Shown: in pieces, positions 6,307 to 44,932 of the stretch
How positions within the stretch are numbered: the first letter of the stretch is position 1
Layout: every line of letters starts with the position of its first letter
Origin: Bacteroidia bacterium
GTDB taxonomy: Bacteria > Bacteroidota > Bacteroidia > UBA4408
Reading direction: 5' to 3'
Assembly (NCBI GenBank): GCA_044374175.1
Contig: JBILPB010000004.1
Span: 1-55,612, forward strand
Length of the DNA: 55,612 bases
The notes under the pieces: model-generated
What the model was told of the DNA's origin: nothing
Seen by the model: only the letters and a program-made list of their open reading frames with translations
Database searches by the model: none
Position numbers and translations under genes: made by a program

Positions 6307-6322
6307 GTAAAAGTATTTTGTG

Positions 6323-6330
6323 CAAAAGTA
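6323..6330 (-). promoter_or_regulatory. -7 promoter box for tatD-ansA
   Basis: TACTTTTG on the minus strand just upstream of tatD. Confidence 0.55.
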
Positions 6331-6386
6331 GAAAAATTATAGAGATTGAAGTTTCTGCAAAAATTATAGTTTAATAGCTAGAAAAA

Positions 6387-6433
6387 TTTATACTAAAGGA
6401 GTATTTGAAACACTTTACTATTTAATATTTTTG
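6387..6433 (+). promoter_or_regulatory. Putative operator (copy 1) plus promoter of the 1113-aa T9SS gene
   Basis: TTTATACTAAAGGAGTATTT (6387-6406, core palindrome ATACT-N5-AGTAT), identical to 9890-9909. Overlaps TTTG (-33-like, 6404-6407); TATTTTTG -7 box at 6426-6433. Confidence 0.75.
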
Positions 6434-6465
6434 TTGAAATTTTTCTTCAAAATTTACTTGAAATT

Positions 6466-9400
6466 TTGAAGAAAAACACCAAGCTGAAAAAGTTAATTAA
6501 TCCTACAAATAATATTAGTATGCACTCCATTAAAAAAAGTATCAGAATAATTTTATTAGCTATACTTATAATAATTAAGTTCCATTCAGTAAAAGCAACA
6601 AATTACACGGTAACATCAGCATTAGATGCTGGTGCTGGTTCTTTAAGAAGTGCAATTATTTCAGCTAATGCAGATCTTAGTGTTCCACATACTATTCAGT
6701 TTAACTTATCTGCTGGAACTACCATAATTTTATCATCAGTTTTACCTACATTATCTAAAACAACAAAAATAGATGGAACCACAGCATTGGGTTATGTTAA
6801 TAATGTTCCAGGAGTGATTATTGACTGTGGTGGTGCTTCATATGGCATAGGTGTGATTGATGCACCAAATTGTGAGATTTATGGTTTGCAAATTATTAAT
6901 GCTGATAATGGAATTTATATTACAGGAGATAATGCAGATGGCTTTATAATTGGCGGAATTAATAAACGAAATGTAATAAATAGTTGTAATCAGTATCAAT
7001 TATATATTGAGAGTGCCGACAATGGCTTGATTCAGAATAACTATATTGGATGTGATGTAACAGGAAGTAATGGTTTTGCTGCAACAGGCAATGGATTAAC
7101 ATTTATAAGCGGTGCTGATAATAATTTGATTGGAGGAACACAAACAGGAACAGGCAACTTAATTGCCGGTGGAACAAGTGCAGCGGTGCGTATTGGCTCT
7201 TATTTCGGACAAGCTAATTTGGGAAGTTCAGGAAATATCTTTTATGGTAATCAAATTGGAGGTACAGGTACCTTAGCCTGGTATGGCTGGGCTTTTTGGA
7301 TAGACGGCAATTCAGACAACAACATCATTGGCGGGGTTTTGCCTGGTGAAGCAAATAATTTGCAAAATGCAACAAACGGAAATATGGGTAATGGGTATGG
7401 CAATCTGGTTATTGCCGTTAATGAGTTAGAGGCTGAAGGAAATCAAATAAGAGGTAATAACATGGATTGCGCCTTTGGTAATGGCATCATGCTTGTTCCT
7501 AGCAGTAATGGAGGTAACAACAATTTACCTGAACCGGTCATTACTGGAATCAATGCGAACATTTTAAGTGGAACCGCTATACCAGGAACTATCATTGATA
7601 TTTATGAAGGAAGTCTTTGCAATAGTGTTTATGGCAACTGTAAGGGATCAAACTATATTACTTCCACCACAACAGACGGAATTGGTATATGGGCAGTAGA
7701 TCTCACTGCTTTTGCCTCTTACAATGGAGTAAATGTTGTTGTTACTGCAACTACTCCTGCAGAAGGGACAAGCAGTTTTTCTTCATGCTTTGGGCCATTG
7801 GTAATTACTCCTCCTGTGAATATTTCATGCGATCCAACCGGAAATTTAGTTTTGTTTACTAACTATGATGGGGGAGAATTGAATATAAATGTTGATGTAA
7901 ACATTCCTAATTTAAAAATTGGGATTTGCAGTTTTGAACCTGTTACTGTAAATATTACAGGAGCATTCAGCAGCAACGTTACGCAGGTGTTGTACGCAGG
8001 TTTTAATCCTACACAAGGAAATAATAATTGTGGTTTTGGTATAGTAAATACCATTATTAATGGAGTTCCTGCCTCAAATTATAGTATTGAAACTAGTCCT
8101 CCCACAGCAATTAGTAGTCCAAACGGATACAACGCGGGTATAATTTGTGCGTATAGCTGTGATATGAGCGCATGGCAGGGAGGATGTAATACTATTGATC
8201 AGATCATGGATTATTTTACCACTCAACTTGGCGGCACCTTATTCTCACTGAATGCGCAATACTGCTGCTGGCAGCCTTCAAATATTTATTCTGTATCATC
8301 TTTGAGTGGCTCTTGCTGTCTTAGTACATCAACCAATACCGTAATTTCCTATAGCGGCTCTCCCTATTGTACTGGCATTTCAACTCCACAAAATGTTACC
8401 ATCACAGGTTCCACCCTTGGGACATTTTCGGCCATCCCTGCTGGTTTAAATATAGATCCTATTACAGGTTCAATTACACCTTTAGGAAGTGCAGCTGGCA
8501 CCTATCAAGTAACTTTTACCAGCCCTGGTTGTCCTGACTTTACAACATCTGCCACAGTGGTTATCGATAACGGACCAAGTGTTGGTATTAGTTATCCGGG
8601 CACTCAATTTTGTCAGTCGGGAACAAATCCAACAGCCACTATTACAGGGCTTACCGGAGGAACCTTTAGCTCCTTTCCTGCCGGTTTGATTGTTCAGAGT
8701 TCAACAGGTGAAATTAACTTAGTAGCCTCCAATCCGGGCAATTATTCAGTAGTGTATGCCACTCTAGGGAATTGTCCTACAGCAGATACAGTTAACATTA
8801 CGATCATACCTGAAATAAATGCAACTTTTACCTATAGCGACACACTATTTTGTGCGAATGAGGCAGATCCTACAGCATTGCTTAGTTCTGGAGCCACTTA
8901 TGGTTTGTTTACTGCAAGCCCAAACACATTGGTCTTTTCAAATACAAGTGATGGCACCATTGACTTATCTGCCACTGCGGCAGGTTCATACATTGTGATA
9001 AATACAGTGAATGGTTCAAATGGTTGTGCAGCAAGTATAGCCAACTACACCATTAACATTGTTGAAGCGCCTACTGCAAGTTTCAACTATGCGGCCGGAC
9101 CATACTGCGAGGGCGCGCCACAAGTAATTAATGCCAATTTTAGCGGAAGTACGGGTGGCCAATTTTCGGCTGTTCCTGCAGGGTTAAGTATTAATCAAAC
9201 TAATGGAAGCATTAATATTAATTTAAGTAACGCGGGCAATTATACCGTTACCTACAGTATTGCAAATGCAGGTAATTGCGGACCACTTTCAACTTCTACA
9301 AGCTTTCAAATAGCTGCAGCACCTAATGTTCAGCTAACTCCAAGTGTAACCATTGAAGATGGTAATAGTGTCGCGCTAATAGCTAGTGGCGGTGGTTTAT

Positions 9401-9807
9401 ATACATGGAGCACAGGGCAAATAGGAGACTCAATTATTGTTTCACCCGACAGCTCGTCACGCTATTGTGTGAGCGCCAACTTAAATGGATGTGTTGATAC
9501 CGCTTGCACGATGGTATATGTTGAAAGCGCCTGTGGAGAATTGTTTATTCCAAATAGTTTCTCTCCGAATAATGACGCTAATAATGATTTTCAATGTGTG
9601 CTCGGCAATTGTATTGAATCGATGAGTTTTTATATTTACAATCGTTGGGGTGAGCTTATTTTTGAGAGTACAAGCCAATCGATATGTTGGGATGGTACCT
9701 ATAAAGGAAAAGAATGTAATTCCGGTGTTTATTTTTATACCTTCGAAGGGAGAACTATCAAAAGAGAGCAGATTTTCAGGAAGGGAAATATTAATTTATT
9801 CAGGTAA
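6466..9807 (+). CDS. T9SS type-B CTD (gliding motility-associated C-terminal domain) surface protein / putative adhesin
   Basis: Signal peptide (likely start ATG 6520), CSLREA-like GSLRSAI motif, beta-helix-like head, four ~80-aa stalk repeats, C-terminal FIPNSFSPNNDANND...IYNRWG...WDGTYKG...GNINLFR. Confidence 0.88.
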   Translation: MKKNTKLKKLINPTNNISMHSIKKSIRIILLAILIIIKFHSVKATNYTVTSALDAGAGSLRSAIISANADLSVPHTIQFNLSAGTTIILSSVLPTLSKTTKIDGTTALGYVNNVPGVIIDCGGASYGIGVIDAPNCEIYGLQIINADNGIYITGDNADGFIIGGINKRNVINSCNQYQLYIESADNGLIQNNYIGCDVTGSNGFAATGNGLTFISGADNNLIGGTQTGTGNLIAGGTSAAVRIGSYFGQANLGSSGNIFYGNQIGGTGTLAWYGWAFWIDGNSDNNIIGGVLPGEANNLQNATNGNMGNGYGNLVIAVNELEAEGNQIRGNNMDCAFGNGIMLVPSSNGGNNNLPEPVITGINANILSGTAIPGTIIDIYEGSLCNSVYGNCKGSNYITSTTTDGIGIWAVDLTAFASYNGVNVVVTATTPAEGTSSFSSCFGPLVITPPVNISCDPTGNLVLFTNYDGGELNINVDVNIPNLKIGICSFEPVTVNITGAFSSNVTQVLYAGFNPTQGNNNCGFGIVNTIINGVPASNYSIETSPPTAISSPNGYNAGIICAYSCDMSAWQGGCNTIDQIMDYFTTQLGGTLFSLNAQYCCWQPSNIYSVSSLSGSCCLSTSTNTVISYSGSPYCTGISTPQNVTITGSTLGTFSAIPAGLNIDPITGSITPLGSAAGTYQVTFTSPGCPDFTTSATVVIDNGPSVGISYPGTQFCQSGTNPTATITGLTGGTFSSFPAGLIVQSSTGEINLVASNPGNYSVVYATLGNCPTADTVNITIIPEINATFTYSDTLFCANEADPTALLSSGATYGLFTASPNTLVFSNTSDGTIDLSATAAGSYIVINTVNGSNGCAASIANYTINIVEAPTASFNYAAGPYCEGAPQVINANFSGSTGGQFSAVPAGLSINQTNGSININLSNAGNYTVTYSIANAGNCGPLSTSTSFQIAAAPNVQLTPSVTIEDGNSVALIASGGGLYTWSTGQIGDSIIVSPDSSSRYCVSANLNGCVDTACTMVYVESACGELFIPNSFSPNNDANNDFQCVLGNCIESMSFYIYNRWGELIFESTSQSICWDGTYKGKECNSGVYFYTFEGRTIKREQIFRKGNINLFR
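8341..9320 (+). repeat. Four degenerate ~80-85 aa Ig/PKD-like repeats in the 1113-aa protein
   Basis: Units start ISYSGSPYC / ISYPGTQFC / FTYSDTLFC / FNYAAGPYC, with a recurring FS..PAGL.I...TG.I....S.AG.Y.V pattern. Confidence 0.75.
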
Positions 9808-9889
9808 TACTATACAATTTTTTGTGCTCATAAATTGGGCACGAAAATTAATTATAGTTGGAATAACTTTCAATTTAAGGTTACTATTT

Positions 9890-9937
9890 TTTATACTAAA
9901 GGAGTATTTCCAAATCCTTTGATATTGAATATTTTGG
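9890..9937 (+). promoter_or_regulatory. Putative operator (copy 2) plus promoter of the 3155-aa T9SS gene
   Basis: TTTATACTAAAGGAGTATTT at 9890-9909. Near-consensus -7 box TATTTTGG at 9930-9937, spaced within 1 nt of copy 1. Confidence 0.75.
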
Positions 9938-10003
9938 CTGCGGCATAAAATACAATGCTTCGTTAAAAAATAATTAAATAACCTTTAAATAACTATCACA
10001 ACA

Positions 10004-13000
10004 ATGAAAAAATTTATTCAAACAATGCAATACTTAGCAAAGTGTTGTAATGTGCCTCTGGGTGTTATTGCAGCAATGCTAATTTTACTTCCTCAGTATT
10101 TGTTTGCAACCGTTTTTACAGTATCCAGCACTGCCGATAGTGGGCCAGGTACACTTAGGCAGGCAATTACTAATGCGAATGCAGATGTTGCAGTGCCCCA
10201 TACCATTAACTTTTCAATTGCTGCAGGAAGTACCATCACTTTGGCCGCAACTGCTTTACCGAATATAACGCGCACCATGATAATTGATGCAACCACCACG
10301 GCTGGCTGGACATCCAACGCCATAGGTGTAACCCTTGATGCAACAAGCAATACAGGCAATCAGGTATTTAATGTGGTAAACGTGCCTGGGTTTGAGATTT
10401 ATGGTTTTCAAATTATTGGTGGAGCATCCACAAGCTTCGGGATTTTAATCAATGGCGATAATGCCGATAATTTTAAAATTGGCGCCATCAATAAGCGCAA
10501 TGTAATCAACAGAGCAGGCAATACGGTTATAAAAGTTATTAGTGCCGATAACGGCTTTATTCAAAACAATTATATCGGCTGCGATGTAACTGGCACGTTT
10601 GGTTACTATGGCACGCCTACACTCACCCCGCCCAATTCAGGTAGTGGTTTACAGCTTACTGATGGTGCCAATGGCAATACTGTTGGAGGAAGTACTGCTG
10701 GACAAGGAAATTTGATTGCCGGAGGAACGGGCATTGCGCTTTTATTAGGTATTACTAATGATGCGAGCCCAGGCCTAAGCGGATGCTCGAACAATATTAT
10801 TTATGGCAACAGAATTGGCGGCCCCGGCACCTTGCAGTTTTGGAATTGTATAGGTATTTGGTTAGATGGAAATTCTGATAACAATATTATTGGAGGTGTG
10901 CTTGCTGGGCAAGCCAATGACCTTTCGTATTGTTCGAATGGAAATTCTTGCGATGGTCAGGGAACATCAGCAATCCGCATTCGCAGTGCAGAGGCGCAAG
11001 GAAATACCATACGGGGCAATGTTATGCAGTGCGCTCCCGGAGCGGGAATTAGGTTAATATCTACAGGTTCGAATAACAACCAATCATCCCCCGTACTTTC
11101 TGCTTTTAATATTACAACCAATATTTTAACAGGGACAAGTACAACACCCAATGCTATTATTGATGTGTATTTGGGTAGTGATTGTAATGGAGATTATGCA
11201 TTTAATATTAAAAGTAAACAATATTTGGCGAGCACCACAGCCGATGCAAGTGGCAACTGGAGTGTTAACTTATCTTCCGTTACGTGCTTCTTAAATGGAG
11301 AATATTTGACAGCAACAGCAACAAACCCTACTAATGGAAGCACTGGTCAATTTGCAAGCGGCTTATTGGTTACGCTGCCCACCCCCGCTGTTTATTATCC
11401 TCCGGGAACGTACACAGTAGGACCTACCGGCACATTTTGTTCTTTGAAAGGGGTTGCTGCATTTTTAAATCTTTTTACGATTTCGGGGGCCTATATTTTT
11501 GAGTTGCAGCCAACTTACAATGGTTCAACAGAGGCTACACCGATTGTTTTTAACAACAACGCAGGCTCATCTGCAACTAATACAGTAACGATTAGACCTG
11601 CAGTAGGAGCGACCAACTTACAAATTACAAACGGAAATGCCGACAATACCATTCGTTTAAATGGTATGGACTTTTTAACCATTGACGGACGCGCAGGAGG
11701 AACAGGCACCAGCCGCAACCTTTCAATTGAAACACTCAATGATATGGGTGCATCAATTATGCTTACCAATGATGCAGTAAGTAACACCATTCGCTTTTGC
11801 AATGTGCGAGGTGGTGCTGCATACACTGGGGCAGGCGGAAGTTCAGGTGGTATGATCGGTATCATTGAAATTAATACACTTGCCGGAAGTACAACAGGAT
11901 GCGATAACAATACAATTGCTAACTGCTTAATCGCAAACAACAATTCTTCCACACTGAGTCCAATATGTGGTGTTTATTGCAGAGGATTGTCAAACGCAGC
12001 TACCAATAATAACATCGTTATTCGCAATAACGAATTTAATGGAATCAGAGAATATGGCTACAATGGTGCAAATAAATATTCCGGAATCATTCATTTTGAT
12101 GCTTTTAACTCAGCTGCTGTGATTGAGGGGAATAGCATTTATCAATCGGCAGCTTACGATATTCCATTGCAATCGGGCTCACAAGTCGTAACTCAGTATG
12201 GTATATTTGTCCACAATGGAGCAGGTTATAATATTTCAGCAGCCAATGTGACCAATTTGACAGGCAATGGCAATAACTTTATTATTAGAGATAATTTTAT
12301 TGGAGGTAGTGGTCCGAATTGCACAGGAACATGGACTGTAAACACGCCAGTGACAACAAGCGGTCAGTATCGATTTATTGGTATTTATGTTCAAGGCACC
12401 ATCAATACCCCTGCAGGCAGTTTAGCAAGCATAGAGGGCAATACCATTAAAAATATTTCGTGGGGGACAACCTCACCCTTTGCAAATACAGCTCCGCAAC
12501 TGGCTGTGTGGGGCGGTATTGTTGTAGTTGGAGGACAGGCTGTTGGAGTAACAGGAAGAACTGTTACCATTGGAACCTTGAGCAAACCAAATATTATTGG
12601 GGATAACCTTTCTAATGGCTCAATTACTGTTACAAATGCTGGCTCAGCTGCAGGAAATGGGATGAACCTTATCGGTATACAGGTTCAAAGTATGGGTTCA
12701 GGGAATACAACTATTGAGTATAATCAAATTGGAGGTATCACAGCAAGTTCAATAACAGGAGCTGGTCGTGTTTCAACAATTGAGGGAATTCGGGTGGATG
12801 ATGGAAACAATGTAATTCGTTTTAATACCATTGGAAGTACTACGTTGGCCAATAGTTTTAACATTACCGCCTCGGCTACAACTTATAATGCTACAGCGGC
12901 TAACAATCAGATTCAGCGTGTGCGAGGCATTGTTCATTCGGGCGGAACGGCAACTACCGCATCAACAACCATTGCCAACAATACTATTGCTAATCTGCGA

Positions 13001-16000
13001 ATGAATTATGCTGCCACAGCTACCGGGCCTGGTGCAGCGAGAGGTATTGTGTTTGATAATCCAACACCGGCCAATCTTCGCGGAGCCATTCAAATTCAAA
13101 ACAATACCATTTTTAACCTCGCATCCAATCAAAATTTTGCAGCAAGCGGAGCTACGGCCAATGTGGTAGGGATTGATTTCAATTTATCGGGGAATTCCGA
13201 GGTGGCCAATACCAATATTTCGGGCAATACCATTTATGGCTTAACCACCAATGGTTCGACTGTAATTACAAATGCCCTTGGTATTTACTATTCAGGAAGA
13301 TCGGCAGGTACACAAACCATTAATGGTAATTATATCAGAGATTTCAATTCAACAAACACTAGCCAAAGTCAAACTGGTATTTTGGTGGAAGGTGGTGTCT
13401 CAACGTATTCAAACAACATCATTTTCCTTGGCAATGGTATTAGTACGCACCCTAGTATAAATGGCATCCGCGAGACAAGCGGTACCAATCAGTTTTATTT
13501 TAACACAGCCAGGATAGTCGGAGTGCCAACAGGAACTGCTACCAATAGTACTTTTGCTTTTATATCAATGGTAAATGCGGGAACACGCAATATTCGCAAC
13601 AATATTTTCGCTAACGCAAGAAGTTCTTTTGTGGATGCTACAAGTAGACATTATGCCATTAGCTTAATCGGAAATACAGGCCTTACCATTAACTTTAACA
13701 ATTACGTTGCATCGGGTGCAAATGGAGCGGTTTTAGGTCGTTATAATGCTGTTAATAATACATCACTTGCTACATGGCAAACATCAACTACACAGGATGC
13801 AGCCAGTCAATCAATAAATCCTAATTTTTTTGGCCCAGGTCCAACTGCAACACATCATAGACCCACCGGAACAGGAATTATTGCAGGTGTTGCCGTTGCA
13901 AGTGTTACCACCGATTATTCTGGAACTTACAGATCGTGCAACAACACCCTTGGTGCATTTGAGATAGCGCCCACGGCACCTAATTTACAAATTACCAATC
14001 CTGCTGCAGTATGCTCACCCAATACTGTCAACTTGAATGCTGTTGGCGTAATCACCGACCTCAATAGCACCACTGGCACTACAAGTTATTTTTCAAGTCT
14101 TGCCAATGCCATTAGTAATACCTCGCCCATAGCTATTACTACTGCTGTTTCAGCATCAGGGACTTACTTTATAAGAAAAACAGCGGGTTGCGGATTCGAT
14201 GTGAAGCCTGTGACAGTAACGATAAATCCACTGCCAAATCCTTCGTTTACCGTTTCATCATCTTCTCTTTGCGCAGGTTCAACAGGTGTTGTTTTTACCA
14301 CGCAAAGTGGTATGACTGGCTACACCTGGAATATTACAGGAGTAGGTAATAGTATTTCCTCTGGTTCGGGAACAAACTCTGTTATAACCTCATGGGGATC
14401 GAACGGAGGGAACGTTACCTTAAACTATACAAACCCAAATGGTTGTTCAGCTGCAAGTGCCATTAGTCAGGCAGTAACCATTACCCCTCTTGCTACACCT
14501 ACTTTTACAGTTACTGGCGCAAGTCCGGTTTGTCAGGGTGCAACAGCACAAACATTTACCACGCAAACAGGCCGGTCTAATTATTTATGGTCGGTTGTTG
14601 GCGGTAACATTACAGCGGGTGGCACATCAACAAGTAATTCTGCAACAATTACATGGAATACCCCTGGTGCTGGTGTTGTAGCAGTAAACTATTCTAATGC
14701 TGCAAGTCCGCTTTGTTTTGCTAGTTCATATACCTCTGCTAACATCACAGTTAATGCCCCTCCAGCTATTACTGCGCAGCCAACTGCCCCAACAGTTGTA
14801 TGCAGTGGAGCAGGAACACAAACACTGAGTGTAACTGCCACAGGAGCTGGTTTAAATTATTCTTGGAGAAAGGGTGGAACACCGGTCACAAATGGAACCG
14901 TATATTCTGGACAAGGCACAAGCACATTAACTTTAACCAATCCTACGGTTGCAGATGCTGGAAGTTATGATGTAGTAATTACAGGTACTTGCACACCTGC
15001 AGTTACTTCAAGTGCAGTAACAGTAAGTGTAAATCCTTTGCCGCAAGGCAGCATTTCGGGCAATACTGTTTGTATAGGAGGCCAAAGTCAATTTACATTT
15101 ACGGCAACTGCAGGTACGGGACCATATACTTTAATCATAGATGGAACAACTTACACCAACGTAGTAAGCGGCACTCCTTTTAATGGACCATCGCCAAGCT
15201 CTAACACATCCTATACATTAACATCTATAACTGGCTCCAATGGTTGTGTTAGGACATCAGGTTTTACCGGTGCAACTGCCACATTAACAATTAATACCGC
15301 ACCAGCCATTACCACTCAACCCTCTGCTCCAAGTTCTACTTGCACCAGCAGTGGCACTCAAACCCTAAGTGTTGCAGCTACTGGAACAGGCTTAACCTAT
15401 TCTTGGAGAAAGGGAGGAGTAGCGATTACCAATGGAGGAGTTTTTTCAGGTCAAGGAACTAATACATTAACCTTAACAAATCCTGTGATTGCAGATGCCG
15501 GTAGTTACGATGTAGTGATTAGTGGGACTTGTCCTTCTCCTGTAACTTCCAATGCAGTTAATGTAACTGTAAATCCATTGCCGCAAGGCAGTATTGCCGG
15601 TAACACTATTTGCTCAGGCAACCAAAGTCAATTTACCTTTACCGCAAGCACAGGTATAGGGCCATTTACATTAATCGTTGGAGGTACAACCTATACCAAT
15701 GTGATAAGCGGCACGTCTTTTAATGGTCCATCGCCAACTACTACTACTCCGTACACATTAACCTCTATTACTGATGCCAATGGTTGTGTGAGAACAACAG
15801 GCATAACCGCAGCAACAGCTACTGTAACTGTAAACACAGCACCCTCAATTATCACTCAGCCACTGCAGCCAGCAGCAACTTGCACAGGTTCAGGTACACG
15901 CACCATTTCTGTTCTTGCTACCGGAACTGGACTAACCTATTCTTGGAGAAAAGATGGATTAGCTGTTGCTAACGGAGGAATATATTCCGGACAAGGCACA

Positions 16001-19000
16001 AATACATTGACAATAACCAATCCTGTGGTGGCAGATGCAGGTAGTTATGATGTTGTAATCAGTGGAACTTGCACACCTGATGTTACTTCTAATGCAGTAT
16101 TATTAAATGTGAGCGCCACACCAACAGCCAGCGGCACAGGTCCTTTACAAACTTGTGAGAATGGAGCTATCACCGTGAGTGGAGTCAGCGCAACTAATGG
16201 CACTATCTCTTGGAGCATTCTTAACGGGAATGGCAATTTAGCTAACACAAGCACCTTAACACCAACCTATACGCCAGTGGCAGCTGATGCGGGGACAACG
16301 GTTGTATTAAGACTTTCTGTATCAAATCCTCCTTGTGCCGATGCAATTTATGATCAACAAATTCAAATTAGACCTAGGCCTACTTTAAGCACAGCTGCTG
16401 TCAACATCTGCACAGGCAATCCTTTTCAACAAATTGATGTTGTGTCGCCTCAACCAAATACAGATTATAAATGGTCGCCAGTCAATGATTTATATCTTGA
16501 TATGGGATTAACTGTTCCTTACACTTTAGGAACAGCCGCATCAACAGTATGGACTGCTCCTTTTGGAAACGTAACCTACAATGTATCTGCTACTAATACA
16601 ACAGATAATTGCGTTACTGGTGCCACACCAGTAGCAGTGACCGTTTGTCCAGCTGCCAATGATGCCATCTGTCAAGCTCTTCCTGTAAATGTGACAAGCA
16701 CCGCAACTTTTGTAAATTACAGCTTAACAGGATCTACTCCATCAATATTTGCTGCTTGTGCACCTGTGGCCAGAGATATTTATTTCTCTGCAGTGGTTCC
16801 TGCCAATGGCGAGATTAATGTAATCACCTTAGCGGGCAATAATAGTAATGCTTCATTAAATATTGTGAGTAGTGTAGTACAAATTTTAACTGGAGCTTGT
16901 ACTTCACCAACAGCGGTATATTGTGATGCTAATGGAGGTGCAGGCAATATGAGCTTTGCTCATGCCAGTGGTTTAAGCCCTGGATCAACTGTTTATATTC
17001 GTTTAGCAAGAACAGGTGGCCTTTCAACTGCACAATTTGTGAGAATGGCAGTTACAAACGGTTTGATTTGGACAGCAGCAGCAGATGACGACTTTAATAA
17101 TCCAGCCAACTGGCATGGAGGTGATGCTACTGCTTTAACAAAACCAGATGCGACAATTTCTGCTATCATTCCATCAACCGTAACAAAACCTAAATTATAC
17201 GCTAATAGCACAGTAAGAGGCATGAACTTTACAACTGGAGCGCCTTACTTTGTTTCTCCAGGAATCAATTTAAATGCATTTACCTTAAATGTAAAAGGCT
17301 CTTGGTTAGTAGGTCCTTCAGTAGCTTCAACTTTAGTTTTAGATTGCAATGGAACGGTAGAATTTAATGGGTCAGGGGCTTCGGCTCAAACCATTGGAGG
17401 CAAAAATACCTTTGGTAATTTAACGGCCAACAATACTGTTGGAGGTATAACTTTGAATGCAAGCACTGGTGTTACTTGTATTTTAAAAACAACTGCTGGT
17501 ACCTTGAATAGTGCTGGTAATTTAATACTGCGCTCAAATGCTACTACAACAGCTTTGGTAGATCCTCTTGCTGGCACTGTAAATGGGAATGTGAGTGTTG
17601 AGCGTAAAATTGGTACAACATCTGGCTATCATTATTTATCGAGTCCAGTGGCTAATGCCTTTGTTAACAATACGGTTAATGGTTGGCGCGATGATTTTAC
17701 AATTCTTTCGGCTCTTGATGGTTTAGTATTTATACCAGGCAATACCTATTCAACCTTGCCTACTGTTTGGGAATACAATGAACCTAATTTAAATCCAAAC
17801 GCAGCATATGGATGGATTGCTGCTACAGCAGGTGATGATGAGATTAAACCTTTGAAAGGTTTTGCATGTGTTGTAACAGGAAATACGGTAGTTGATGTAG
17901 TAGGAGCTTTAAACAATGGCACCATAGCCGGAGGTTATAACATTACAAGAACAACTGGAACTGGTGTTGGCGAAGGCTTAAATGCCATAGGAAATCCTTA
18001 TCCATCACCTATAAGTTGGAATGCCTTTAGAGCTTTACCAGCAAATAGTGGCTTGCTATCAACAAGTGGCTATCAGGCTTTCATCTCTTCGGGAGGATAT
18101 AACGGTGCTTATGGTAGCTGGGATGGCGCTGTTGGTTCACCTGTGAGTGTTACAGATAAAATAGCTTCATCACAGGGAGTTATGATTACCGCTTTGGCCA
18201 CCGGAAATATCAATGCTGCAAACAGCGTTCGTTTAACTAGTGCTGCCGATTTAAATGCAACCTTCTTCAATGGTTACAATAGCGTTCCTGATTTAATGAG
18301 AATAGAAGTGCAAGGCAATGCTTATACGAATGAAACCGCTATTTATTTTGATCCAACAGGAAATGATGTTTTTGATATTCATCGTGATGCAAGGTTGATT
18401 TATACACCAGTAGCTGGCGTGCCAAATATTTATTCGAAAATAGATAACACCCCATTAAATATCAATGTAATGGGTAAACTAGATATGGATAAAGTGGTTT
18501 CATTAGGCGTAAAAATACAAACAGCAGGTACTTATAATTTAGTGGCAACAGATATGACAACATTTGCTCCATCTGTAATTGCTTATTTAGAAGATACACA
18601 AGCTGGAACCATGACTAACTTACGCACTAATCCATCTTACAATGTTACTTTACCAGTAGGAGAAATCAACAATCGTTTCTACTTACATTTCCATCCAGCG
18701 GTTGAGTTAAATACAATCAATGAAACATGCGCAGGTAACGATGGTAAATTATTGATTAACTATCCTACCACAAATACAGTAGATATTATCATTAAAGATG
18801 AAAACGGGAATGTGGTAAGCACACAAAACAACTTAACAGGAACAGTAACCATCAACAACTTGCTTTCAGGAAATTATGTAGCTGAAATGACTTTTGGTGT
18901 AGCTCCAAATATTTACACAACTGCTGACTACTTCACAGTAGCTGGTGGAAATGCAGTGTTTGCTAACCTAAGTGCTAGTGCTACTTCAGTAGATATGAAT

Positions 19001-19471
19001 GCAAATACAACAGTTAACTTTACTGCAACCGCTCAGGGAGCAACTAGCTTTAACTGGAACTTTGGAGATGGCACTGTTGTAACAAATGGTCCAGCTAACA
19101 TGGCTCATACCTTTGCATCAGTAGGTACTTATACTGTAACTTTTGAAGCTAGCAACGGCATTTGTAATACAGTAGCAACTACAACGGTAGAAGTTACAAA
19201 TGCTACAGGTTTAGTGGCTATCAATAACAGCAAATTGCAAGTTGTTGGTGTTGGAAGCAAAGTAACAGTTCGTTTTGGCAACAAAATGGAAGGTACAGGC
19301 AACATCGAAGTCATTAATATGTTAGGCGAGGTAGTAGCTCATCTTGACAATGTATCAATGAAAGGCACAAGAGAAATCGAAATGTCAAACATTGCTGCTG
19401 GTCAATATTTAGTTAAAATAACTAACGGTAATAAATTGTATACTGATAAGGTTTTCTTGAGCCGTCAGTAG
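10004..19471 (+). CDS. Giant T9SS type-A CTD surface protein / putative adhesin (beta-helix, Ig-like, PKD domains)
   Basis: Signal peptide, GTLRQAI (CSLREA-like) motif, long N/G/T-rich parallel beta-helix-like repeats, three Ig repeats (YSWRK..DAGSYDVVI), GNPYPSPI, PKD WNFGDG, C-terminal IEVINMLGE...AGQYLVKI...DKVFL. Confidence 0.9.
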   Translation: MKKFIQTMQYLAKCCNVPLGVIAAMLILLPQYLFATVFTVSSTADSGPGTLRQAITNANADVAVPHTINFSIAAGSTITLAATALPNITRTMIIDATTTAGWTSNAIGVTLDATSNTGNQVFNVVNVPGFEIYGFQIIGGASTSFGILINGDNADNFKIGAINKRNVINRAGNTVIKVISADNGFIQNNYIGCDVTGTFGYYGTPTLTPPNSGSGLQLTDGANGNTVGGSTAGQGNLIAGGTGIALLLGITNDASPGLSGCSNNIIYGNRIGGPGTLQFWNCIGIWLDGNSDNNIIGGVLAGQANDLSYCSNGNSCDGQGTSAIRIRSAEAQGNTIRGNVMQCAPGAGIRLISTGSNNNQSSPVLSAFNITTNILTGTSTTPNAIIDVYLGSDCNGDYAFNIKSKQYLASTTADASGNWSVNLSSVTCFLNGEYLTATATNPTNGSTGQFASGLLVTLPTPAVYYPPGTYTVGPTGTFCSLKGVAAFLNLFTISGAYIFELQPTYNGSTEATPIVFNNNAGSSATNTVTIRPAVGATNLQITNGNADNTIRLNGMDFLTIDGRAGGTGTSRNLSIETLNDMGASIMLTNDAVSNTIRFCNVRGGAAYTGAGGSSGGMIGIIEINTLAGSTTGCDNNTIANCLIANNNSSTLSPICGVYCRGLSNAATNNNIVIRNNEFNGIREYGYNGANKYSGIIHFDAFNSAAVIEGNSIYQSAAYDIPLQSGSQVVTQYGIFVHNGAGYNISAANVTNLTGNGNNFIIRDNFIGGSGPNCTGTWTVNTPVTTSGQYRFIGIYVQGTINTPAGSLASIEGNTIKNISWGTTSPFANTAPQLAVWGGIVVVGGQAVGVTGRTVTIGTLSKPNIIGDNLSNGSITVTNAGSAAGNGMNLIGIQVQSMGSGNTTIEYNQIGGITASSITGAGRVSTIEGIRVDDGNNVIRFNTIGSTTLANSFNITASATTYNATAANNQIQRVRGIVHSGGTATTASTTIANNTIANLRMNYAATATGPGAARGIVFDNPTPANLRGAIQIQNNTIFNLASNQNFAASGATANVVGIDFNLSGNSEVANTNISGNTIYGLTTNGSTVITNALGIYYSGRSAGTQTINGNYIRDFNSTNTSQSQTGILVEGGVSTYSNNIIFLGNGISTHPSINGIRETSGTNQFYFNTARIVGVPTGTATNSTFAFISMVNAGTRNIRNNIFANARSSFVDATSRHYAISLIGNTGLTINFNNYVASGANGAVLGRYNAVNNTSLATWQTSTTQDAASQSINPNFFGPGPTATHHRPTGTGIIAGVAVASVTTDYSGTYRSCNNTLGAFEIAPTAPNLQITNPAAVCSPNTVNLNAVGVITDLNSTTGTTSYFSSLANAISNTSPIAITTAVSASGTYFIRKTAGCGFDVKPVTVTINPLPNPSFTVSSSSLCAGSTGVVFTTQSGMTGYTWNITGVGNSISSGSGTNSVITSWGSNGGNVTLNYTNPNGCSAASAISQAVTITPLATPTFTVTGASPVCQGATAQTFTTQTGRSNYLWSVVGGNITAGGTSTSNSATITWNTPGAGVVAVNYSNAASPLCFASSYTSANITVNAPPAITAQPTAPTVVCSGAGTQTLSVTATGAGLNYSWRKGGTPVTNGTVYSGQGTSTLTLTNPTVADAGSYDVVITGTCTPAVTSSAVTVSVNPLPQGSISGNTVCIGGQSQFTFTATAGTGPYTLIIDGTTYTNVVSGTPFNGPSPSSNTSYTLTSITGSNGCVRTSGFTGATATLTINTAPAITTQPSAPSSTCTSSGTQTLSVAATGTGLTYSWRKGGVAITNGGVFSGQGTNTLTLTNPVIADAGSYDVVISGTCPSPVTSNAVNVTVNPLPQGSIAGNTICSGNQSQFTFTASTGIGPFTLIVGGTTYTNVISGTSFNGPSPTTTTPYTLTSITDANGCVRTTGITAATATVTVNTAPSIITQPLQPAATCTGSGTRTISVLATGTGLTYSWRKDGLAVANGGIYSGQGTNTLTITNPVVADAGSYDVVISGTCTPDVTSNAVLLNVSATPTASGTGPLQTCENGAITVSGVSATNGTISWSILNGNGNLANTSTLTPTYTPVAADAGTTVVLRLSVSNPPCADAIYDQQIQIRPRPTLSTAAVNICTGNPFQQIDVVSPQPNTDYKWSPVNDLYLDMGLTVPYTLGTAASTVWTAPFGNVTYNVSATNTTDNCVTGATPVAVTVCPAANDAICQALPVNVTSTATFVNYSLTGSTPSIFAACAPVARDIYFSAVVPANGEINVITLAGNNSNASLNIVSSVVQILTGACTSPTAVYCDANGGAGNMSFAHASGLSPGSTVYIRLARTGGLSTAQFVRMAVTNGLIWTAAADDDFNNPANWHGGDATALTKPDATISAIIPSTVTKPKLYANSTVRGMNFTTGAPYFVSPGINLNAFTLNVKGSWLVGPSVASTLVLDCNGTVEFNGSGASAQTIGGKNTFGNLTANNTVGGITLNASTGVTCILKTTAGTLNSAGNLILRSNATTTALVDPLAGTVNGNVSVERKIGTTSGYHYLSSPVANAFVNNTVNGWRDDFTILSALDGLVFIPGNTYSTLPTVWEYNEPNLNPNAAYGWIAATAGDDEIKPLKGFACVVTGNTVVDVVGALNNGTIAGGYNITRTTGTGVGEGLNAIGNPYPSPISWNAFRALPANSGLLSTSGYQAFISSGGYNGAYGSWDGAVGSPVSVTDKIASSQGVMITALATGNINAANSVRLTSAADLNATFFNGYNSVPDLMRIEVQGNAYTNETAIYFDPTGNDVFDIHRDARLIYTPVAGVPNIYSKIDNTPLNINVMGKLDMDKVVSLGVKIQTAGTYNLVATDMTTFAPSVIAYLEDTQAGTMTNLRTNPSYNVTLPVGEINNRFYLHFHPAVELNTINETCAGNDGKLLINYPTTNTVDIIIKDENGNVVSTQNNLTGTVTINNLLSGNYVAEMTFGVAPNIYTTADYFTVAGGNAVFANLSASATSVDMNANTTVNFTATAQGATSFNWNFGDGTVVTNGPANMAHTFASVGTYTVTFEASNGICNTVATTTVEVTNATGLVAINNSKLQVVGVGSKVTVRFGNKMEGTGNIEVINMLGEVVAHLDNVSMKGTREIEMSNIAAGQYLVKITNGNKLYTDKVFLSRQ
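14753..16110 (+). repeat. 540-bp (180-aa) tandem repeat, 2.5 units (Ig-X-Ig-X-Ig)
   Basis: Units start at 14753, 15293 and 15833. TCTTGGAGAA recurs at 14861, 15401 and 15941, an exact 540-bp period. Confidence 0.92.
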
Positions 19472-19507
19472 TAAAAAACATTGTAATTGTTTAAATTCAA
19501 TGGTAAG

Positions 19508-19545
19508 CAAAACCCTGAAGTTTTTTCTTTAGGGTTTTGTTTTTT
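19508..19545 (+). terminator. Rho-independent terminator after the giant gene
   Basis: CAAAACCCTGAAG...CTTTAGGGTTTTG followed by TTTTTT. Confidence 0.85.
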
Positions 19546-19587
19546 GATAAAGAAATTATTTATTTTAGGTGACTCAATTAACTCATT

Positions 19588-21597
19588 TTGACTTTCATTA
19601 TTTCTAGAATACATATTTTTCAGTTTTATGTAATATTACTACCTTTTATTGCACAAGCCAGATTTTCTGATGTTTCAAACGAAATTGAAACGAAGATTTC
19701 TTTAATAAAAGTCGAGAAAGAAGATACAAGCGAAGTAAACAGACTTAATGCTATTGGTTTAAAATTAAAGAAAAAAGGCGATTTTAAGGATGGTCTGAAA
19801 ATTACCCAACAAGCTATCAATATTGCACGCAAAATAAACTATGATAAAGGACTAATAGATGCCTATATTAATGAGGTTGGATTGTATGAAGCACTTGGTA
19901 ACAATCAACGTGCAAAGGAAAGCTTAAATAAGGGATTTAATATTGCAAAAAAAATTAAGTATAAAAAAGGATTAGTCTTACTTTATAGAAATTCGGGAGT
20001 ACTTAATATTGTAGAAAATAATTACCCGAAAGCAATCGAAGACTTTTATAAATCGCTAAAAATAGCTGAGGAAATAAACTATAAAGATGGTATTACCTAT
20101 GCATACAATAATATAGGAAATCTTAACTTTGAACAGGGCAATTATGGGGAAGCGAAAAAAAATTACCTCAGCACATTAAAGCTTTCAGAAGAGTTAAAAG
20201 ATTCTTTCAGTTTGGGCTATGCTTATAACAACCTAGGTTATGTTGCAAGCAAATTAGGGAAGTATTCGGAAGCAATGGAATTTTACAAAAAGTCAATTGA
20301 TATAAAAGAAAAAACAGGTGATAAACGAGGCATTTGTAATGTAAAAAGAAATATTGGAGATATAAATCAGGCAACAGGAAATTACAAAGACGCATTGATT
20401 GAATATAATGAAGCATTAATGATTGCTACTCAGATTAATGATCAGAAGGCGATCTCTGAAATATCTGTCAATTTAGGACGATTAAATTTGATGCTAAAAA
20501 ATTATATTAAATCAAGAGAATATCTTCAAAAGGCATTAAAACTTTCAAATGAAATTGGAGGAAAGTTATTAAAGATTGAGATTTACAATTTACAATCAAA
20601 ACTTGATAGCTGTGAAGGTAACTTTAAATCTGCTTTTGAAAATTCAAAGCTAGAGTTGATTTTAATGGACAGTATTAAAAATGAAAAATCAACACTTCAA
20701 ATAGAACAACTTAAAATTCAGTACGAGACAGAGAAAAAGACCAAGGAACTTGCTGCATTGCGTTACGAAAATGAAATTCAAAAACAAAATACCTATCAAA
20801 TGAATTTGCTGATTTTATTAATTACTGCAGCTTCTTTGTTCATTATTATTTTAATTGCTATTCAAAATATTAGCCGCAAGAAAGAGCTCATTATTGCAAA
20901 AAATGCACTAGAGCTTAAATCACTTGAAATACAAAAAGCAAAGGTAGAAGAACGTGTAAAGGTACAACGCGAAATTTCTGAGCAATATCATGATATTTTA
21001 GGGTATAAAATTACAAGCATTTTACTGATGTGCGAAAATGCCAAGAAAAATTTATTTGATGACAATAAGGTTTTGTATGATTTTGTAATTAGAATAGGAA
21101 ATAAATTGAAAGAGGTTGCAGAAACAAATCGTAGCGGTATTATTGCCTTGTCTTCAGATTCAGATGAACTTGAGTCATTTATTGGAGAACTTCGTGCAGA
21201 TTTAAGTGATTTAGCAGAAACTACTGGAAAGGAAATAAGTTTTCAAATCACTGAAAATATTCCTTCAATTACTGTTGAACCTGTCTTTAAATTTAACATC
21301 TCCGCTGCAATGAAGGAAGCAATAAACAACTCGTTAAAGTATGCAAACTGTGACTTTGTTGAAGTAAAAATTGAAGTTACAGAGCACATCTATAAGATTG
21401 CCATTTCAGATTCAGGCATTGGCATAAGCAACAATCAAAAAAAACATCATGGCTATGGCATGATTAATATGAAAAACCGTATTAAAAGCATTGGAGGAGC
21501 TATTTTTATTGATTCAAAGGAAGGACATGGTACTAAAGTAGTATTTGAAGGTGATTTTAATAGAAGTAATTTCACAAACGAAACATTCACTATTTAA
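19588..21597 (+). CDS. TPR-repeat sensor histidine kinase (HisKA_3/NarX-like)
   Basis: Multiple TPR repeats (AYNNIGNL, AYNNLGYV), one TM helix, H-box YHDILG, N-box EAINNSLKY, DSGIG, GYGMINM, GHGT. Confidence 0.92.
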   Translation: MTFIISRIHIFQFYVILLPFIAQARFSDVSNEIETKISLIKVEKEDTSEVNRLNAIGLKLKKKGDFKDGLKITQQAINIARKINYDKGLIDAYINEVGLYEALGNNQRAKESLNKGFNIAKKIKYKKGLVLLYRNSGVLNIVENNYPKAIEDFYKSLKIAEEINYKDGITYAYNNIGNLNFEQGNYGEAKKNYLSTLKLSEELKDSFSLGYAYNNLGYVASKLGKYSEAMEFYKKSIDIKEKTGDKRGICNVKRNIGDINQATGNYKDALIEYNEALMIATQINDQKAISEISVNLGRLNLMLKNYIKSREYLQKALKLSNEIGGKLLKIEIYNLQSKLDSCEGNFKSAFENSKLELILMDSIKNEKSTLQIEQLKIQYETEKKTKELAALRYENEIQKQNTYQMNLLILLITAASLFIIILIAIQNISRKKELIIAKNALELKSLEIQKAKVEERVKVQREISEQYHDILGYKITSILLMCENAKKNLFDDNKVLYDFVIRIGNKLKEVAETNRSGIIALSSDSDELESFIGELRADLSDLAETTGKEISFQITENIPSITVEPVFKFNISAAMKEAINNSLKYANCDFVEVKIEVTEHIYKIAISDSGIGISNNQKKHHGYGMINMKNRIKSIGGAIFIDSKEGHGTKVVFEGDFNRSNFTNETFTI

Positions 21598-21606
21598 TTT
21601 ATTAAG

Positions 21607-22242
21607 ATGGAGGAGAATCCAATGATAAGCATAGTAATAGTTGAGGATGATATGGAAACTAGGAACTTAGTTGCAAACTATTTAGAATCTGTTCCACATT
21701 TTAAAGTCATTGAAACTTTTGGCTCTGCAGAAGCAACCGCTTTAAAATTTAATGAACTTGAAATTGATGTTTGCCTAGTTGATATTGGTTTACCAGGAAT
21801 GAATGGAATAGAATGTATAAACAAACTTAAAGCAATAAAACCCAAAGTGAATTTTATTGTTTTTTCAACTGCCAATAATAATGAGCAACTATTTAATGCA
21901 CTGGCGGCAGGGGCTACAAGCTATATCCTCAAGCATCAGATTTCAAAATTACAGCAAGCAATAGAAGATGCAGTTGAAGGAACAGGAACTTTTTCACCTG
22001 GAGTTATTAATCGTTTGAGAGACTATTTTCTTGGACTAAAGTCCGAAAATCAACTTGTAAAAAAACTAACAGAAAGAGAAATGGAGGTGCTTGTAATTGC
22101 AAGTAAAGGAAAGAGAAACAAAGAAATTGCTGCTGACCTGAATATTGATGAAACTACTGTTAAAAAGCATATGTCAAATATTATATCTAAGTTGCATGTT
22201 GGAAATAGAGTTGAGGCAATCAATATGCTCCTAGGGCATTAA
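21607..22242 (+). CDS. NarL/FixJ-family response regulator (REC + LuxR HTH)
   Basis: VEDD, DIGLPGMNG, YILK, LTEREMEVL...GKRNKEIA...TVKKHMSNI..KL motifs. Confidence 0.95.
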   Translation: MEENPMISIVIVEDDMETRNLVANYLESVPHFKVIETFGSAEATALKFNELEIDVCLVDIGLPGMNGIECINKLKAIKPKVNFIVFSTANNNEQLFNALAAGATSYILKHQISKLQQAIEDAVEGTGTFSPGVINRLRDYFLGLKSENQLVKKLTEREMEVLVIASKGKRNKEIAADLNIDETTVKKHMSNIISKLHVGNRVEAINMLLGH

Positions 22243-22285
22243 AGACAATTTTACCATTGTATAAATTTGGAATGATATAGTGTTC

Positions 22286-22393
22286 TTAATTCACTTTAAT
22301 CAAATTATCTTCTCCATCCTTGCCAATCAGTTGGTTCAATGGGTCAATTCCTGCTTTATATTGTTCATTATTCATCACAAATTTATAGGTCAT
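22286..22393 (-). pseudogene. 3'-terminal gene relic resembling the C-terminus of Bacteroidota ABC-permease/M1 aminopeptidase proteins
   Basis: Manual translation MTYKFVMNNEQYKAGIDPLNQLIGKDGEDNLIKVN* resembles the AGIDPxNxLIDxxxxDN terminal motif as I recall it; in-frame stop shortly upstream. Confidence 0.55.
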
Positions 22394-44917: not shown

Positions 44918-44932
44918 GCTAATTATTTAGTG

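What the first reader, a model, noticed from the sequence alone, without database searches (positions are those of the whole stretch)
6387..22242. Candidate self-contained system: two T9SS adhesins sharing an operator, plus an adjacent TPR kinase / NarL regulator
Seen: four co-oriented genes lie between housekeeping tatD and gpmI. Both surface-protein genes carry the same upstream 20-mer, and a terminator separates them from a TPR-sensor kinase and a LuxR-HTH regulator. Established: NarL-family regulators bind short inverted repeats near promoters, and TPR arrays commonly bind peptides or proteins. Inference: an extracytoplasmic protein/peptide or contact signal switches on a short and a long version of one adhesin. 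I know of no described system with this layout.
Basis: partly seen in the sequence, partly recalled or inferred. Interest (0 to 1): 0.78.

Follow-up and report, generated by a model that had tools for sequence, protein, structure and literature searches.

The report
Kinase-regulator pair with conserved operator box
A sensor kinase and its DNA-binding partner sit beside two secreted surface-protein genes that carry the same conserved palindromic box at their promoters, a box that also lies inside the kinase gene, so this is probably an ordinary but neatly defined local switch like one known from Porphyromonas.

Summary
The 20-mer TTTATACTAAAGGAGTATTT occurs exactly twice in the window, at 6387 and 9890, upstream of two co-oriented type IX secretion (T9SS) cargo genes. 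These are followed by a terminator, a TPR histidine kinase and a NarL/LuxR response regulator.

New evidence:
- The box is nearly invariant upstream of all five homologous cargo genes in three genomes, while the flanking sequence has diverged.
- It always lies 21-22 nt before a TAnnTT -7-like element.
- A third copy (21531-21546) lies inside the 3' end of the kinase gene, 61 nt before the regulator's ATG. It sits in the longest fully conserved DNA run of the operon.
- The core has only these three perfect hits in the 3.58-Mb genome.
- Kinase, cargo head domain and box co-occur in 3 of 27 family genomes and stay linked where gene order differs.

Best reading (about 0.55): the regulator binds the box, activates the cargo promoters and autoregulates.

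Caveats:
- Nothing was tested experimentally.
- One relative without the kinase-regulator pair has a box-like cargo promoter.
- "Adhesin" is unproven, because the shared head is a beta-helix resembling polysaccharide lyases.
- The layout is not unprecedented. Porphyromonas FimS/FimR is a periplasmic-TPR kinase plus LuxR-family regulator that activates adhesin genes.

Verdict: a new member of a known kind, of moderate interest.

The parts
6387..6406 (+). Box 1, TTTATACTAAAGGAGTATTT (inverted repeat ATACT-N5-AGTAT), upstream of the short cargo gene
6426..6433 (+). -7-like element TATTTTTG, 21 nt after the AGTAT of box 1
   Evidence: The consensus TAnnTTTG for Bacteroidota promoters is recalled, not from a call.
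6520..9807 (+). Short T9SS cargo gene (1095 aa from ATG 6520; ORF opens at 6466). It has a signal peptide, a beta-helix head (about residues 25-440) and a type B CTD.
9819..9847 (+). Terminator-like hairpin between the two cargo genes
9890..9909 (+). Box 2, identical 20-mer, upstream of the long cargo gene
9930..9937 (+). -7-like element TATTTTGG, 22 nt after the AGTAT of box 2
10004..19471 (+). Long T9SS cargo gene (3155 aa) with a homologous beta-helix head, Ig/PKD repeats and a type A CTD
19505..19542 (+). Intrinsic terminator hairpin followed by a T run, separating the cargo genes from the kinase
19588..21597 (+). Sensor histidine kinase. It has an N-terminal hydrophobic segment (residues 3-24), a TPR array, a transmembrane segment (residues 405-427), an H-box (YHDILG) and HATPase_c. 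The start codon is uncertain (TTG).
21527..21552 (+). 26-nt stretch identical in all four orthologous operons. It contains box 3 (core TACTAAAGTAGTATTT, 21531-21546), which overlaps the codons for G-T-K-V-V-F of the kinase ATP-binding domain.
21567..21574 (+). Weak -7-like element TAATTTCA, 22 nt after box 3. This is a candidate internal promoter for the regulator gene.
21607..22242 (+). NarL/LuxR-family response regulator (receiver + GerE helix-turn-helix). The helix-turn-helix is invariant among the three orthologues.

Best explanation
This is a FimS/FimR-like two-component switch with a small local regulon.

Proposed mechanism:
1. The kinase exposes a TPR array to the periplasm between two membrane segments and senses an unknown ligand.
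2. It phosphorylates the NarL/LuxR-type regulator.
3. A dimer of the regulator binds the palindrome ATACT-N5-AGTAT. In the relatives this reads ATACTA-AAG-TAGTAT.
4. The palindrome centre lies about 42 bp upstream of the start site, overlapping the -33 region.
5. Binding switches on two separately transcribed T9SS cargo genes that share a beta-helix head.
6. A third copy of the box inside the 3' end of the kinase gene, with the same spacing to a weak -7-like element, gives the regulator gene its own feedback input.

What is shown: the sequence features, their conservation, their positions and their co-occurrence.

What is inferred: binding by this regulator, the sign of regulation (activation), the internal promoter and the signal.
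For: 1. Conservation. The box is conserved upstream of all 5 head-domain cargo genes found in genomes G000, G007 and G024. 18 of 20 positions are invariant, while mean column identity of the regions is 48%. The proteins themselves are only about 46-62% identical in places, so this is a footprint and not a recent duplication.

2. Unrelated cargo genes. Two further cargo genes in G024 that lack the head domain carry the box. One has PKD/SprB/Por_Secre_tail, the other DUF4886+PKD.

3. Fixed architecture. In 11 of 11 sites, TAnnTT follows the AGTAT at 21 or 22 nt. The genomic background for this is 2.3%.

4. Restriction to the locus. The core TACTAAAGNAGTAT has exactly 3 perfect hits in the 3.58-Mb genome. 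All three are in this 16-kb locus on the gene strand. There are 18 one-mismatch hits versus 12 hits at up to one mismatch for a reversed control.

5. Conservation of the third site. It lies in the kinase gene, 61 nt before the regulator's ATG. It falls in the longest run of perfect identity (26 nt; next longest 16) in the three-way operon alignment, where 73% of 2519 columns are identical. It is also identical in the fourth orthologue. Synonymous positions are therefore frozen there.

6. Co-occurrence. Kinase orthologues (81% identity) were found only in G007 and G024 among 40 relatives; all other matches were at most 39% identical. The head domain was found in the same 3 of 27 family genomes.

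7. Linkage through rearrangement:
- G000 has tatD | cargo cargo kinase regulator | gpmI.
- G007 has the same internal order, but an M1 peptidase lies beside the regulator.
- G024 has kinase, regulator, then box, then cargo.
- The closest relative, G002, has three unrelated genes between tatD and gpmI.

8. Heads without the pair lack the box. Genomes of another family (G167, G232, G341) carry tandem head-domain genes at 49-53% identity but have no kinase orthologue and no exact box.

9. Coherent pair. The kinase core resembles DesK/VraS and the regulator resembles VraR/NarL/DesR. The regulator's helix-turn-helix is invariant in the three orthologues.

10. Precedent. FimR, a LuxR-family regulator, binds and activates adhesin promoters (PMC1974823 and PMC2637884, passages read).
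Against: - No binding or expression data exist. No RNA run could be listed.
- The association is not exclusive. G006 is 99% complete and has no kinase or regulator orthologue; its best regulator match is 35% identical with a different recognition helix. It nevertheless has the core, followed by 22 nt, then TATTTTTG, upstream of a 378-aa Por_Secre_tail gene.
- G018 keeps a box without the pair and without a cargo gene downstream.
- The core 16-mer has 6 hits in 5 of the 24 family genomes that lack the pair, against 2 hits for the reversed control.
- The three genomes with the system are related, and two share a genus. Co-occurrence of physically linked genes is expected from co-inheritance alone.
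- The -7-like element after the internal box is poor (TAATTTCA, TAACTTCA, TACCTTCA), so an internal promoter is uncertain.
- Part of the internal site's conservation comes from coding a conserved kinase motif.
- A site overlapping the -33 region could repress as easily as activate.
Confidence: 0.55

Rival explanations
1. The adjacent regulator does bind the box, but as a repressor. Because the site overlaps the -33 region, it keeps the cargo genes off until the signal removes it, and the intragenic copy acts as a brake or roadblock on regulator expression.
For: - The box ends at or overlaps a TTTG in the short-gene promoter, and the -7-like elements are good (TATTTTTG, TACATTTG), so RNA polymerase might not need help.
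- The internal site has only a weak -7-like element, so a roadblock is as plausible there as a promoter.
Against: - The closest characterised analogue, FimR, is an activator (PMC1974823 and PMC5706477, passages).
- A palindrome centred near -42 is the classical activator position. This is recalled from LuxR and class II activators, not from a call.
- Several of the promoters have imperfect -7 elements (TATTTTGG, TAATTTGG, TATATTTA), which is typical of activator-dependent promoters.
Confidence: 0.15
2. The box is the site of a different DNA-binding protein encoded elsewhere, for example another LuxR-type regulator or a general regulator of T9SS cargo. On this view, its closeness to this kinase-regulator pair reflects co-inheritance of an island.
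For: - G006 has a box-like cargo promoter without the pair, and G018 retains a box without the pair.
- Bacteroidota genomes hold many paralogous TPR kinases and LuxR regulators, up to 21 matches in one relative.
Against: - 9 of the 15 core hits in the family lie in the three genomes that have the pair.
- The third copy sits inside the pair's own operon, in its most conserved DNA stretch.
- Head-domain genes in genomes without the pair lack the box.
- The 20-mer scan of 185,579 species genomes found it beside head-domain genes only on contigs matching G007 and G024.
Confidence: 0.17
3. The shared 20-mer is a neutral leftover of the tandem duplication that produced the two cargo genes, or it acts at the RNA level as a small 5' hairpin. 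In either case it is not a protein operator.
For: - The two genes are paralogues in their 5' parts, and similarity extends about 30 nt beyond the box.
- The box can form a short hairpin.
Against: - The flanks have diverged to about 48% column identity while the box stays 18/20 invariant across five promoters.
- The box also occurs at non-homologous genes and inside the kinase gene.
- It lies upstream of the -7-like element and so is probably not transcribed.
- The one variable position is in the spacer of the palindrome (G, T or A), as expected for a dimer site.
- No Rfam family matches in the window.
Confidence: 0.05

Closest known systems
FimS/FimR two-component system of Porphyromonas gingivalis
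   Same: - The kinase has two membrane segments flanking a periplasmic array of TPR motifs whose signal is unknown.
- The regulator belongs to the LuxR family.
- The system positively controls genes for surface adhesive structures, and the regulator binds target promoters directly.
Sources: PMC11053733, PMC5706477, PMC1974823 and PMC2637884, passages read. FimS is the top NCBIfam hit of this kinase.
   Different: - The FimS model scores only 115 bits against a cut-off of 600, so this kinase is not an orthologue.
- The targets here are T9SS cargo proteins encoded next to the system, not fimbrial (type V pilus) genes elsewhere in the genome.
- A precise operator with three copies, one of them intragenic, is seen here. 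I saw no operator sequence for FimR in the passages read.
NarL/FixJ (LuxR-type helix-turn-helix) response regulators with HisKA_3 kinases, such as NarX/NarL, VraS/VraR and DesK/DesR
   Same: - Domain make-up matches, and these are the closest solved relatives: VraR E 9e-29 and NarL 3e-23 for the regulator, DesK and VraS for the kinase core.
- Dimers of this family bind short inverted repeats near promoters and often autoregulate (established knowledge, recalled).
- VraR sites are recalled as ACT-Nn-AGT, which resembles the ACT...AGT of this box. I could not verify this in the paper I opened.
   Different: - The sensor here is a periplasmic TPR array, not a P-box, membrane or lipid sensor.
- All NCBIfam equivalog scores are far below their cut-offs.
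- The host is a member of Bacteroidota, with -33/-7 type promoters.
PorX/PorY regulation of the type IX secretion system
   Same: It is a two-component system tied to T9SS in the same phylum. A CTD-bearing protein, PorA, is reported as a ligand of that system (PMC12152298, title and abstract seen in listings only).
   Different: - PorX is not a LuxR-type DNA binder, and PorY has no TPR sensor (recalled).
- PorXY controls the secretion machinery through a sigma factor (PMC4800418, abstract in listing).
- The system here would control individual cargo genes.

Membership tests
FimS/FimR-type system (Porphyromonas) | Kinase architecture: membrane segment, periplasmic TPR array, membrane segment, then histidine kinase core | tested here: met
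   TPR_12 at 157 bits in 6 stretches, plus HATPase_c. Hydrophobic segments at residues 3-24 and 405-427. The FimS architecture is taken from PMC11053733.
FimS/FimR-type system (Porphyromonas) | Cognate regulator of the LuxR/NarL family | tested here: met
   Response_reg 75 bits and GerE 69.5 bits. FimR (PG1431) is described as LuxR family in PMC2637884.
FimS/FimR-type system (Porphyromonas) | Orthology to FimS (NCBIfam NF053520 equivalog cut-off of 600 bits) | tested here: not met
   115.2 bits, covering only residues 181-431.
FimS/FimR-type system (Porphyromonas) | Controls fimbrial (FimA/Mfa1) genes | tested here: not met
   The box-bearing genes encode T9SS CTD proteins, not fimbrilins.
NarL/FixJ-family response regulator | Receiver domain with acidic pocket and phospho-acceptor Asp, plus C-terminal GerE helix-turn-helix | tested here: met
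   Pfam domains. E13-D14-D15, D59 (in the motif CLVDIGLPG), T88 and K109 were read from the sequences. Best solved relatives are VraR and NarL.
NarL/FixJ-family response regulator | Binds an inverted repeat at its target promoters | not testable with these tools
   Only indirect evidence: a conserved palindrome at a fixed promoter position and inside the system's own operon.
T9SS cargo (type A CTD) | C-terminal Por_Secre_tail domain above cut-off, an N-terminal signal peptide, and secretion machinery in the genome | tested here: met
   Long protein: PF18962 30.5 vs 27 and TIGR04183 26.3 vs 23. A hydrophobic N-terminus was read. SprA (2640 bits) and GldM are present in the genome.
T9SS cargo (type B CTD) | C-terminal CHU_C / TIGR04131 domain; often a PorP/SprF-like partner gene lies adjacent | tested here: inconclusive
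   The domain is met: 57.5 vs 27 and 51.1 vs 35. No fifth gene lies in the module, so no adjacent PorP/SprF-like partner exists. The genome was not searched for one.
Adhesin | Demonstrated or fold-supported binding function | tested here: inconclusive
   The head model (pLDDT 81, pTM 0.81) is a right-handed beta-helix. Best Foldseek matches are lyases, depolymerases, epimerases and tailspikes at a modest query-normalised TM-score of 0.15-0.44. An enzymatic role is as likely as a binding role.

The most novel reading that the evidence does not exclude
The module is a closed loop. The periplasmic TPR sensor monitors its own cargo, either pre-secretion intermediates or CTDs waiting at the T9SS, or a contact signal passed on by the beta-helix surface proteins. 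The operator written into the codons of the kinase's ATP-binding motif gives the regulator alone a positive feedback, making the switch bistable. With only two or three outputs and a defined 15-bp palindrome, this would be a minimal model for finding what FimS-like TPR kinases sense. The FimS signal is still stated to be unknown (PMC11053733).
Probability: 0.1. Interest if true: 0.65.

Novelty: new member of a known kind. Interest (0 to 1): 0.42.

Why it matters
TPR-sensor kinases paired with LuxR-type regulators are very numerous in Bacteroidota; one relative alone gave 21 matches. Almost none has a known operator, regulon or signal. The signal of the one studied case, FimS, is still unknown. 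Here comparison alone yields a candidate operator, its position in the promoter, a two- to four-gene regulon of secreted surface proteins, and a probable autoregulatory site. That makes a compact and directly testable case. It is not surprising in kind, and the organism appears to be known only from assembled genomes, which limits experiments to heterologous hosts.

Tried and rejected
- **Metagenome scan with the kinase:** only 1 orthologue among 7 confirmed loci, on a 2.5-kb contig. It added no new context beyond the internal box.
- **Scan of 185,579 species genomes for the 20-mer:** 16 hits. 3 lie beside head-domain genes, on contigs matching those of G007 and G024. The other 13 have no head, kinase or regulator nearby and look like chance; several are ribosome-binding-site-like in Firmicutes.
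- **RNA evidence:** no RNA holder was listed.
- **Complex prediction:** kinase TPR domain (residues 26-400) against the type A CTD. The result was no verdict (score 0.00), which is no evidence either way.
- **Rfam on the whole window:** no match. **tRNA scan:** none.
- **Sigma-70 promoter scan:** uninformative, with 41 sites found against 53.7 expected. Bacteroidota promoters are not covered by that tool.
- **Autoregulatory box upstream of the kinase:** none within 3 mismatches. The kinase appears to have its own promoter.
- **Upstream regions of head-domain genes in family f21:** no shared box. One partial left half (TTTATACTAAAT) was seen in G167 and judged insignificant.
- **VraR operator motif:** not found in the passages of the paper I opened, so it is cited only as recalled.
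- **Paper PMC2838039:** not held.
- **Supplementary files of papers:** not consulted. They could hold FimR regulon tables or binding sites that bear on the comparison.
- **Literature on this layout:** one full-text search (type IX secretion, two-component, LuxR, Flavobacterium, adhesin) and two on FimS/FimR. None listed a TPR-kinase/LuxR pair shown to control adjacent T9SS cargo. This is a limited search, not proof of absence.
Full report
**1. The observation**

The region holds four co-oriented genes between tatD (5518-6306, minus strand) and gpmI (22517-24025, minus strand):
- A 1095-aa protein (ATG 6520 to 9807) with a type B T9SS sorting domain.
- A 3155-aa protein (10004-19471) with Ig and PKD domains and a type A sorting domain.
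- A 669-aa TPR histidine kinase (19588-21597).
- A 211-aa receiver plus GerE/LuxR regulator (21607-22242).

The genome encodes the secretion machinery, with SprA at 2640 bits and GldM present.

The 20-mer TTTATACTAAAGGAGTATTT matches exactly at 6387 and 9890 and nowhere else in the window at up to three mismatches. The chance expectation is 0.02, and 0 of 100 shuffles gave two matches. Strong hairpins follow each cargo gene.

**2. The two cargo proteins**

They share only an N-terminal head (46% identity over 472 columns). This head occurs in no other gene of the genome.

A model built from ten homologues (pLDDT 81, pTM 0.81) is a right-handed beta-helix. Its best matches among solved structures are polysaccharide lyases, capsule depolymerases, epimerases and phage tailspikes, at modest TM-scores. 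"Adhesin" is therefore a guess. A glycan-binding or glycan-cutting surface protein is equally possible.

**3. The box is a conserved promoter element**

The head domain was found in 3 of 27 genomes of the family: G000, G007 and G024. I aligned the upstream regions of all five head-domain genes. The box is 18/20 invariant, while the regions as a whole have 48% column identity. The consensus is TTTATACTAAAG[G/T]AGTAT[T/G]T.

In the relatives the palindrome is better, reading ATACTA-AAG-TAGTAT. The one freely varying position (G, T or A) lies in the spacer.

Two more genes in G024 carry the box with A at that position. They lack the head domain. One has PKD, SprB and Por_Secre_tail domains, the other DUF4886 and PKD.

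In all 11 sites examined, a TAnnTT element follows the AGTAT at 21 or 22 nt, against a genomic background of 2.3%. I recall the Bacteroidota promoter consensus as TTTG at -33 and TAnnTTTG at -7. On that basis the centre of the palindrome falls near -42 and overlaps the -33 region. That is the position used by LuxR-type and other class II activators (recalled knowledge).

**4. A third box inside the kinase gene**

Two relatives gave a two-mismatch hit inside the kinase gene, which led to window 21531-21546, TACTAAAGTAGTATTT. It lies 61 nt before the regulator's start codon and overlaps the codons for G-T-K-V-V-F in the ATP-binding domain.

Three results mark it as special:
- Genome-wide, the core TACTAAAGNAGTAT has three perfect hits, all in this locus and all on the gene strand.
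- In the alignment of three orthologous operons (73% of 2519 columns identical), the longest run of perfect identity is the 26 nt at 21527-21552. The next longest is 16 nt.
- The fourth orthologue is identical there too, while neighbouring codons show many synonymous changes.

The site has the same 22-nt spacing to a TAnnTT element, but that element is weak (TAATTTCA, TAACTTCA, TACCTTCA). This ties the box to the two-component operon itself. Autoregulation is the simplest reading. Whether it works as an internal promoter or as a brake is open.

**5. Linkage and co-occurrence**

Kinase orthologues (81% identity) occur in G007 and G024 only, among 40 relatives. All other matches are paralogues at 39% identity or less. 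One more orthologue (86%) came from metagenomes.

The module keeps together while its surroundings change:
- In G007, the end of a type A CTD gene lies directly upstream of the kinase, as in G000. The regulator's neighbour there is an M1 peptidase, not gpmI.
- In G024, the order is kinase, regulator, box, then cargo. A divergent gene lies upstream of the kinase.
- In the closest relative, G002 (tatD and gpmI both 90% identical), three unrelated genes lie between tatD and gpmI. In G000 those three genes sit on another contig.

In a sample of 401 genomes of the class, near-full-length head homologues (49-53% identity) occur in three genomes of another family. There they are in tandem, once as a three-gene operon. 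Those genomes have no kinase orthologue and no exact box. So the box goes with the two-component system rather than with the head domain.

**6. Evidence against**

The association is not exclusive. The 16-mer core without mismatches gives 15 hits in 8 of 27 family genomes. Nine fall in the three genomes with the system. Six fall in five genomes without it. A reversed control gave 2 hits.

Of those six:
- Four lie in coding sequence or lack the spaced -7 element.
- One, in G018, is the orthologous remnant of a G024 promoter with no cargo gene left.
- One, in G006, looks real. It is intergenic, followed by 22 nt, TATTTTTG and a 378-aa Por_Secre_tail gene.

G006 is 99% complete and has no orthologue of the pair. 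Its best regulator match is 35% identical, has a different recognition helix, and sits beside a 26%-identical TPR kinase 70 kb away. This may be a relic of a lost system or the target of another regulator. It keeps the rival "other regulator" alive.

All comparisons rest on three related, fragmentary assemblies, and there are no expression data.

**7. Mechanism**

Most likely (0.55), a FimS/FimR-like switch operates as follows:
- The TPR array, placed between hydrophobic segments 3-24 and 405-427, senses a periplasmic ligand.
- The HisKA_3-type core (nearest solved relatives DesK and VraS) phosphorylates D59 of the regulator (nearest VraR, NarL and DesR).
- A dimer binds the palindrome at about -42 and activates the two cargo promoters.
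- The intragenic copy feeds back on the regulator gene.

The regulator's helix-turn-helix is invariant in the three orthologues, matching the invariant half-sites.

Rivals are the same binding with repression (0.15), another regulator (0.17), and a duplication relic or RNA element (0.05).

**8. Comparison with known systems**

FimS/FimR of Porphyromonas gingivalis has the same kinase architecture, with eight periplasmic TPR motifs between two membrane helices and an unknown signal. It has a LuxR-family regulator and activates adhesin genes by direct promoter binding (PMC11053733, PMC5706477, PMC1974823 and PMC2637884, passages read).

FimS is the kinase's best NCBIfam hit, but at 115 bits against a cut-off of 600. 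The system therefore works like FimS/FimR and is not an orthologue.

It differs in three ways. The outputs are T9SS cargo, the target genes lie next to the system, and there is a defined operator with an intragenic copy. My three literature searches listed no TPR-kinase/LuxR pair shown to control adjacent T9SS cargo.

**9. Verdict**

This is a new member of a known kind. Interest is moderate (0.42). It is a clean, testable regulon prediction for a very common and poorly understood class of Bacteroidota sensors, but it is not a new type of system.

Noticed in passing
L041 / G007:C235 versus window 10004-14950: The long cargo protein of G007 is 98.3% identical to that of G000 over 1648 aa. The neighbouring kinase is 81% identical, tatD 76%, and the short head 62-91%. 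This suggests either recent exchange of this gene between species or a mixed bin.
   Followed up: partly
L096 (G024:C428) 2666-2681 and 4262-4277, minus strand: Two tandem box-bearing promoters (TTTATACTAAAGAAGTATTT) sit upstream of a 620-aa PKD/SprB/Por_Secre_tail protein and a 431-aa DUF4886+PKD protein, next to pirin and alanine dehydrogenase genes. This enlarges the candidate regulon in that genome.
   Followed up: yes
L106 (G018:C41) 2546-2561, minus strand: The same promoter and box sit beside the pirin gene, but no cargo gene lies downstream and this genome has no kinase-regulator pair. It looks like a relic.
   Followed up: partly
L105 (G006:C17:187951-187966), minus strand: A box-like core, followed by 22 nt and TATTTTTG, lies upstream of a 378-aa type A CTD protein in a genome without an orthologue of the pair. 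This is unexplained.
   Followed up: partly
L088 (G167:C42) 7700-13610; L090 (G232:C78); L091 (G341:C17): Another family carries two or three tandem head-domain genes, overlapping like an operon in G167, without the box or the pair. A TPR-only protein (638 aa) lies directly upstream in G167.
   Followed up: partly
window 6306-6520 and 22242-22517; G000:C159: In the closest relative, three genes lie between tatD and gpmI: an FtsX-like permease, a methyltransferase and a 166-aa protein. In G000 they sit on another contig, near the M1 peptidase gene that flanks the module in G007. The locus is a rearrangement point.
   Followed up: partly
window 6520-9807: The short protein has a type B sorting domain, but no PorP/SprF-like partner gene lies in the module. 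Such partners are reported for type B cargo (PMC9143113, abstract in listing). The genome was not searched for one.
   Followed up: no
window 44900-47350: A stretch of about 2.4 kb with low G+C (about 0.285) holds only small ORFs of at most 143 aa. It has no Rfam or tRNA match.
   Followed up: no
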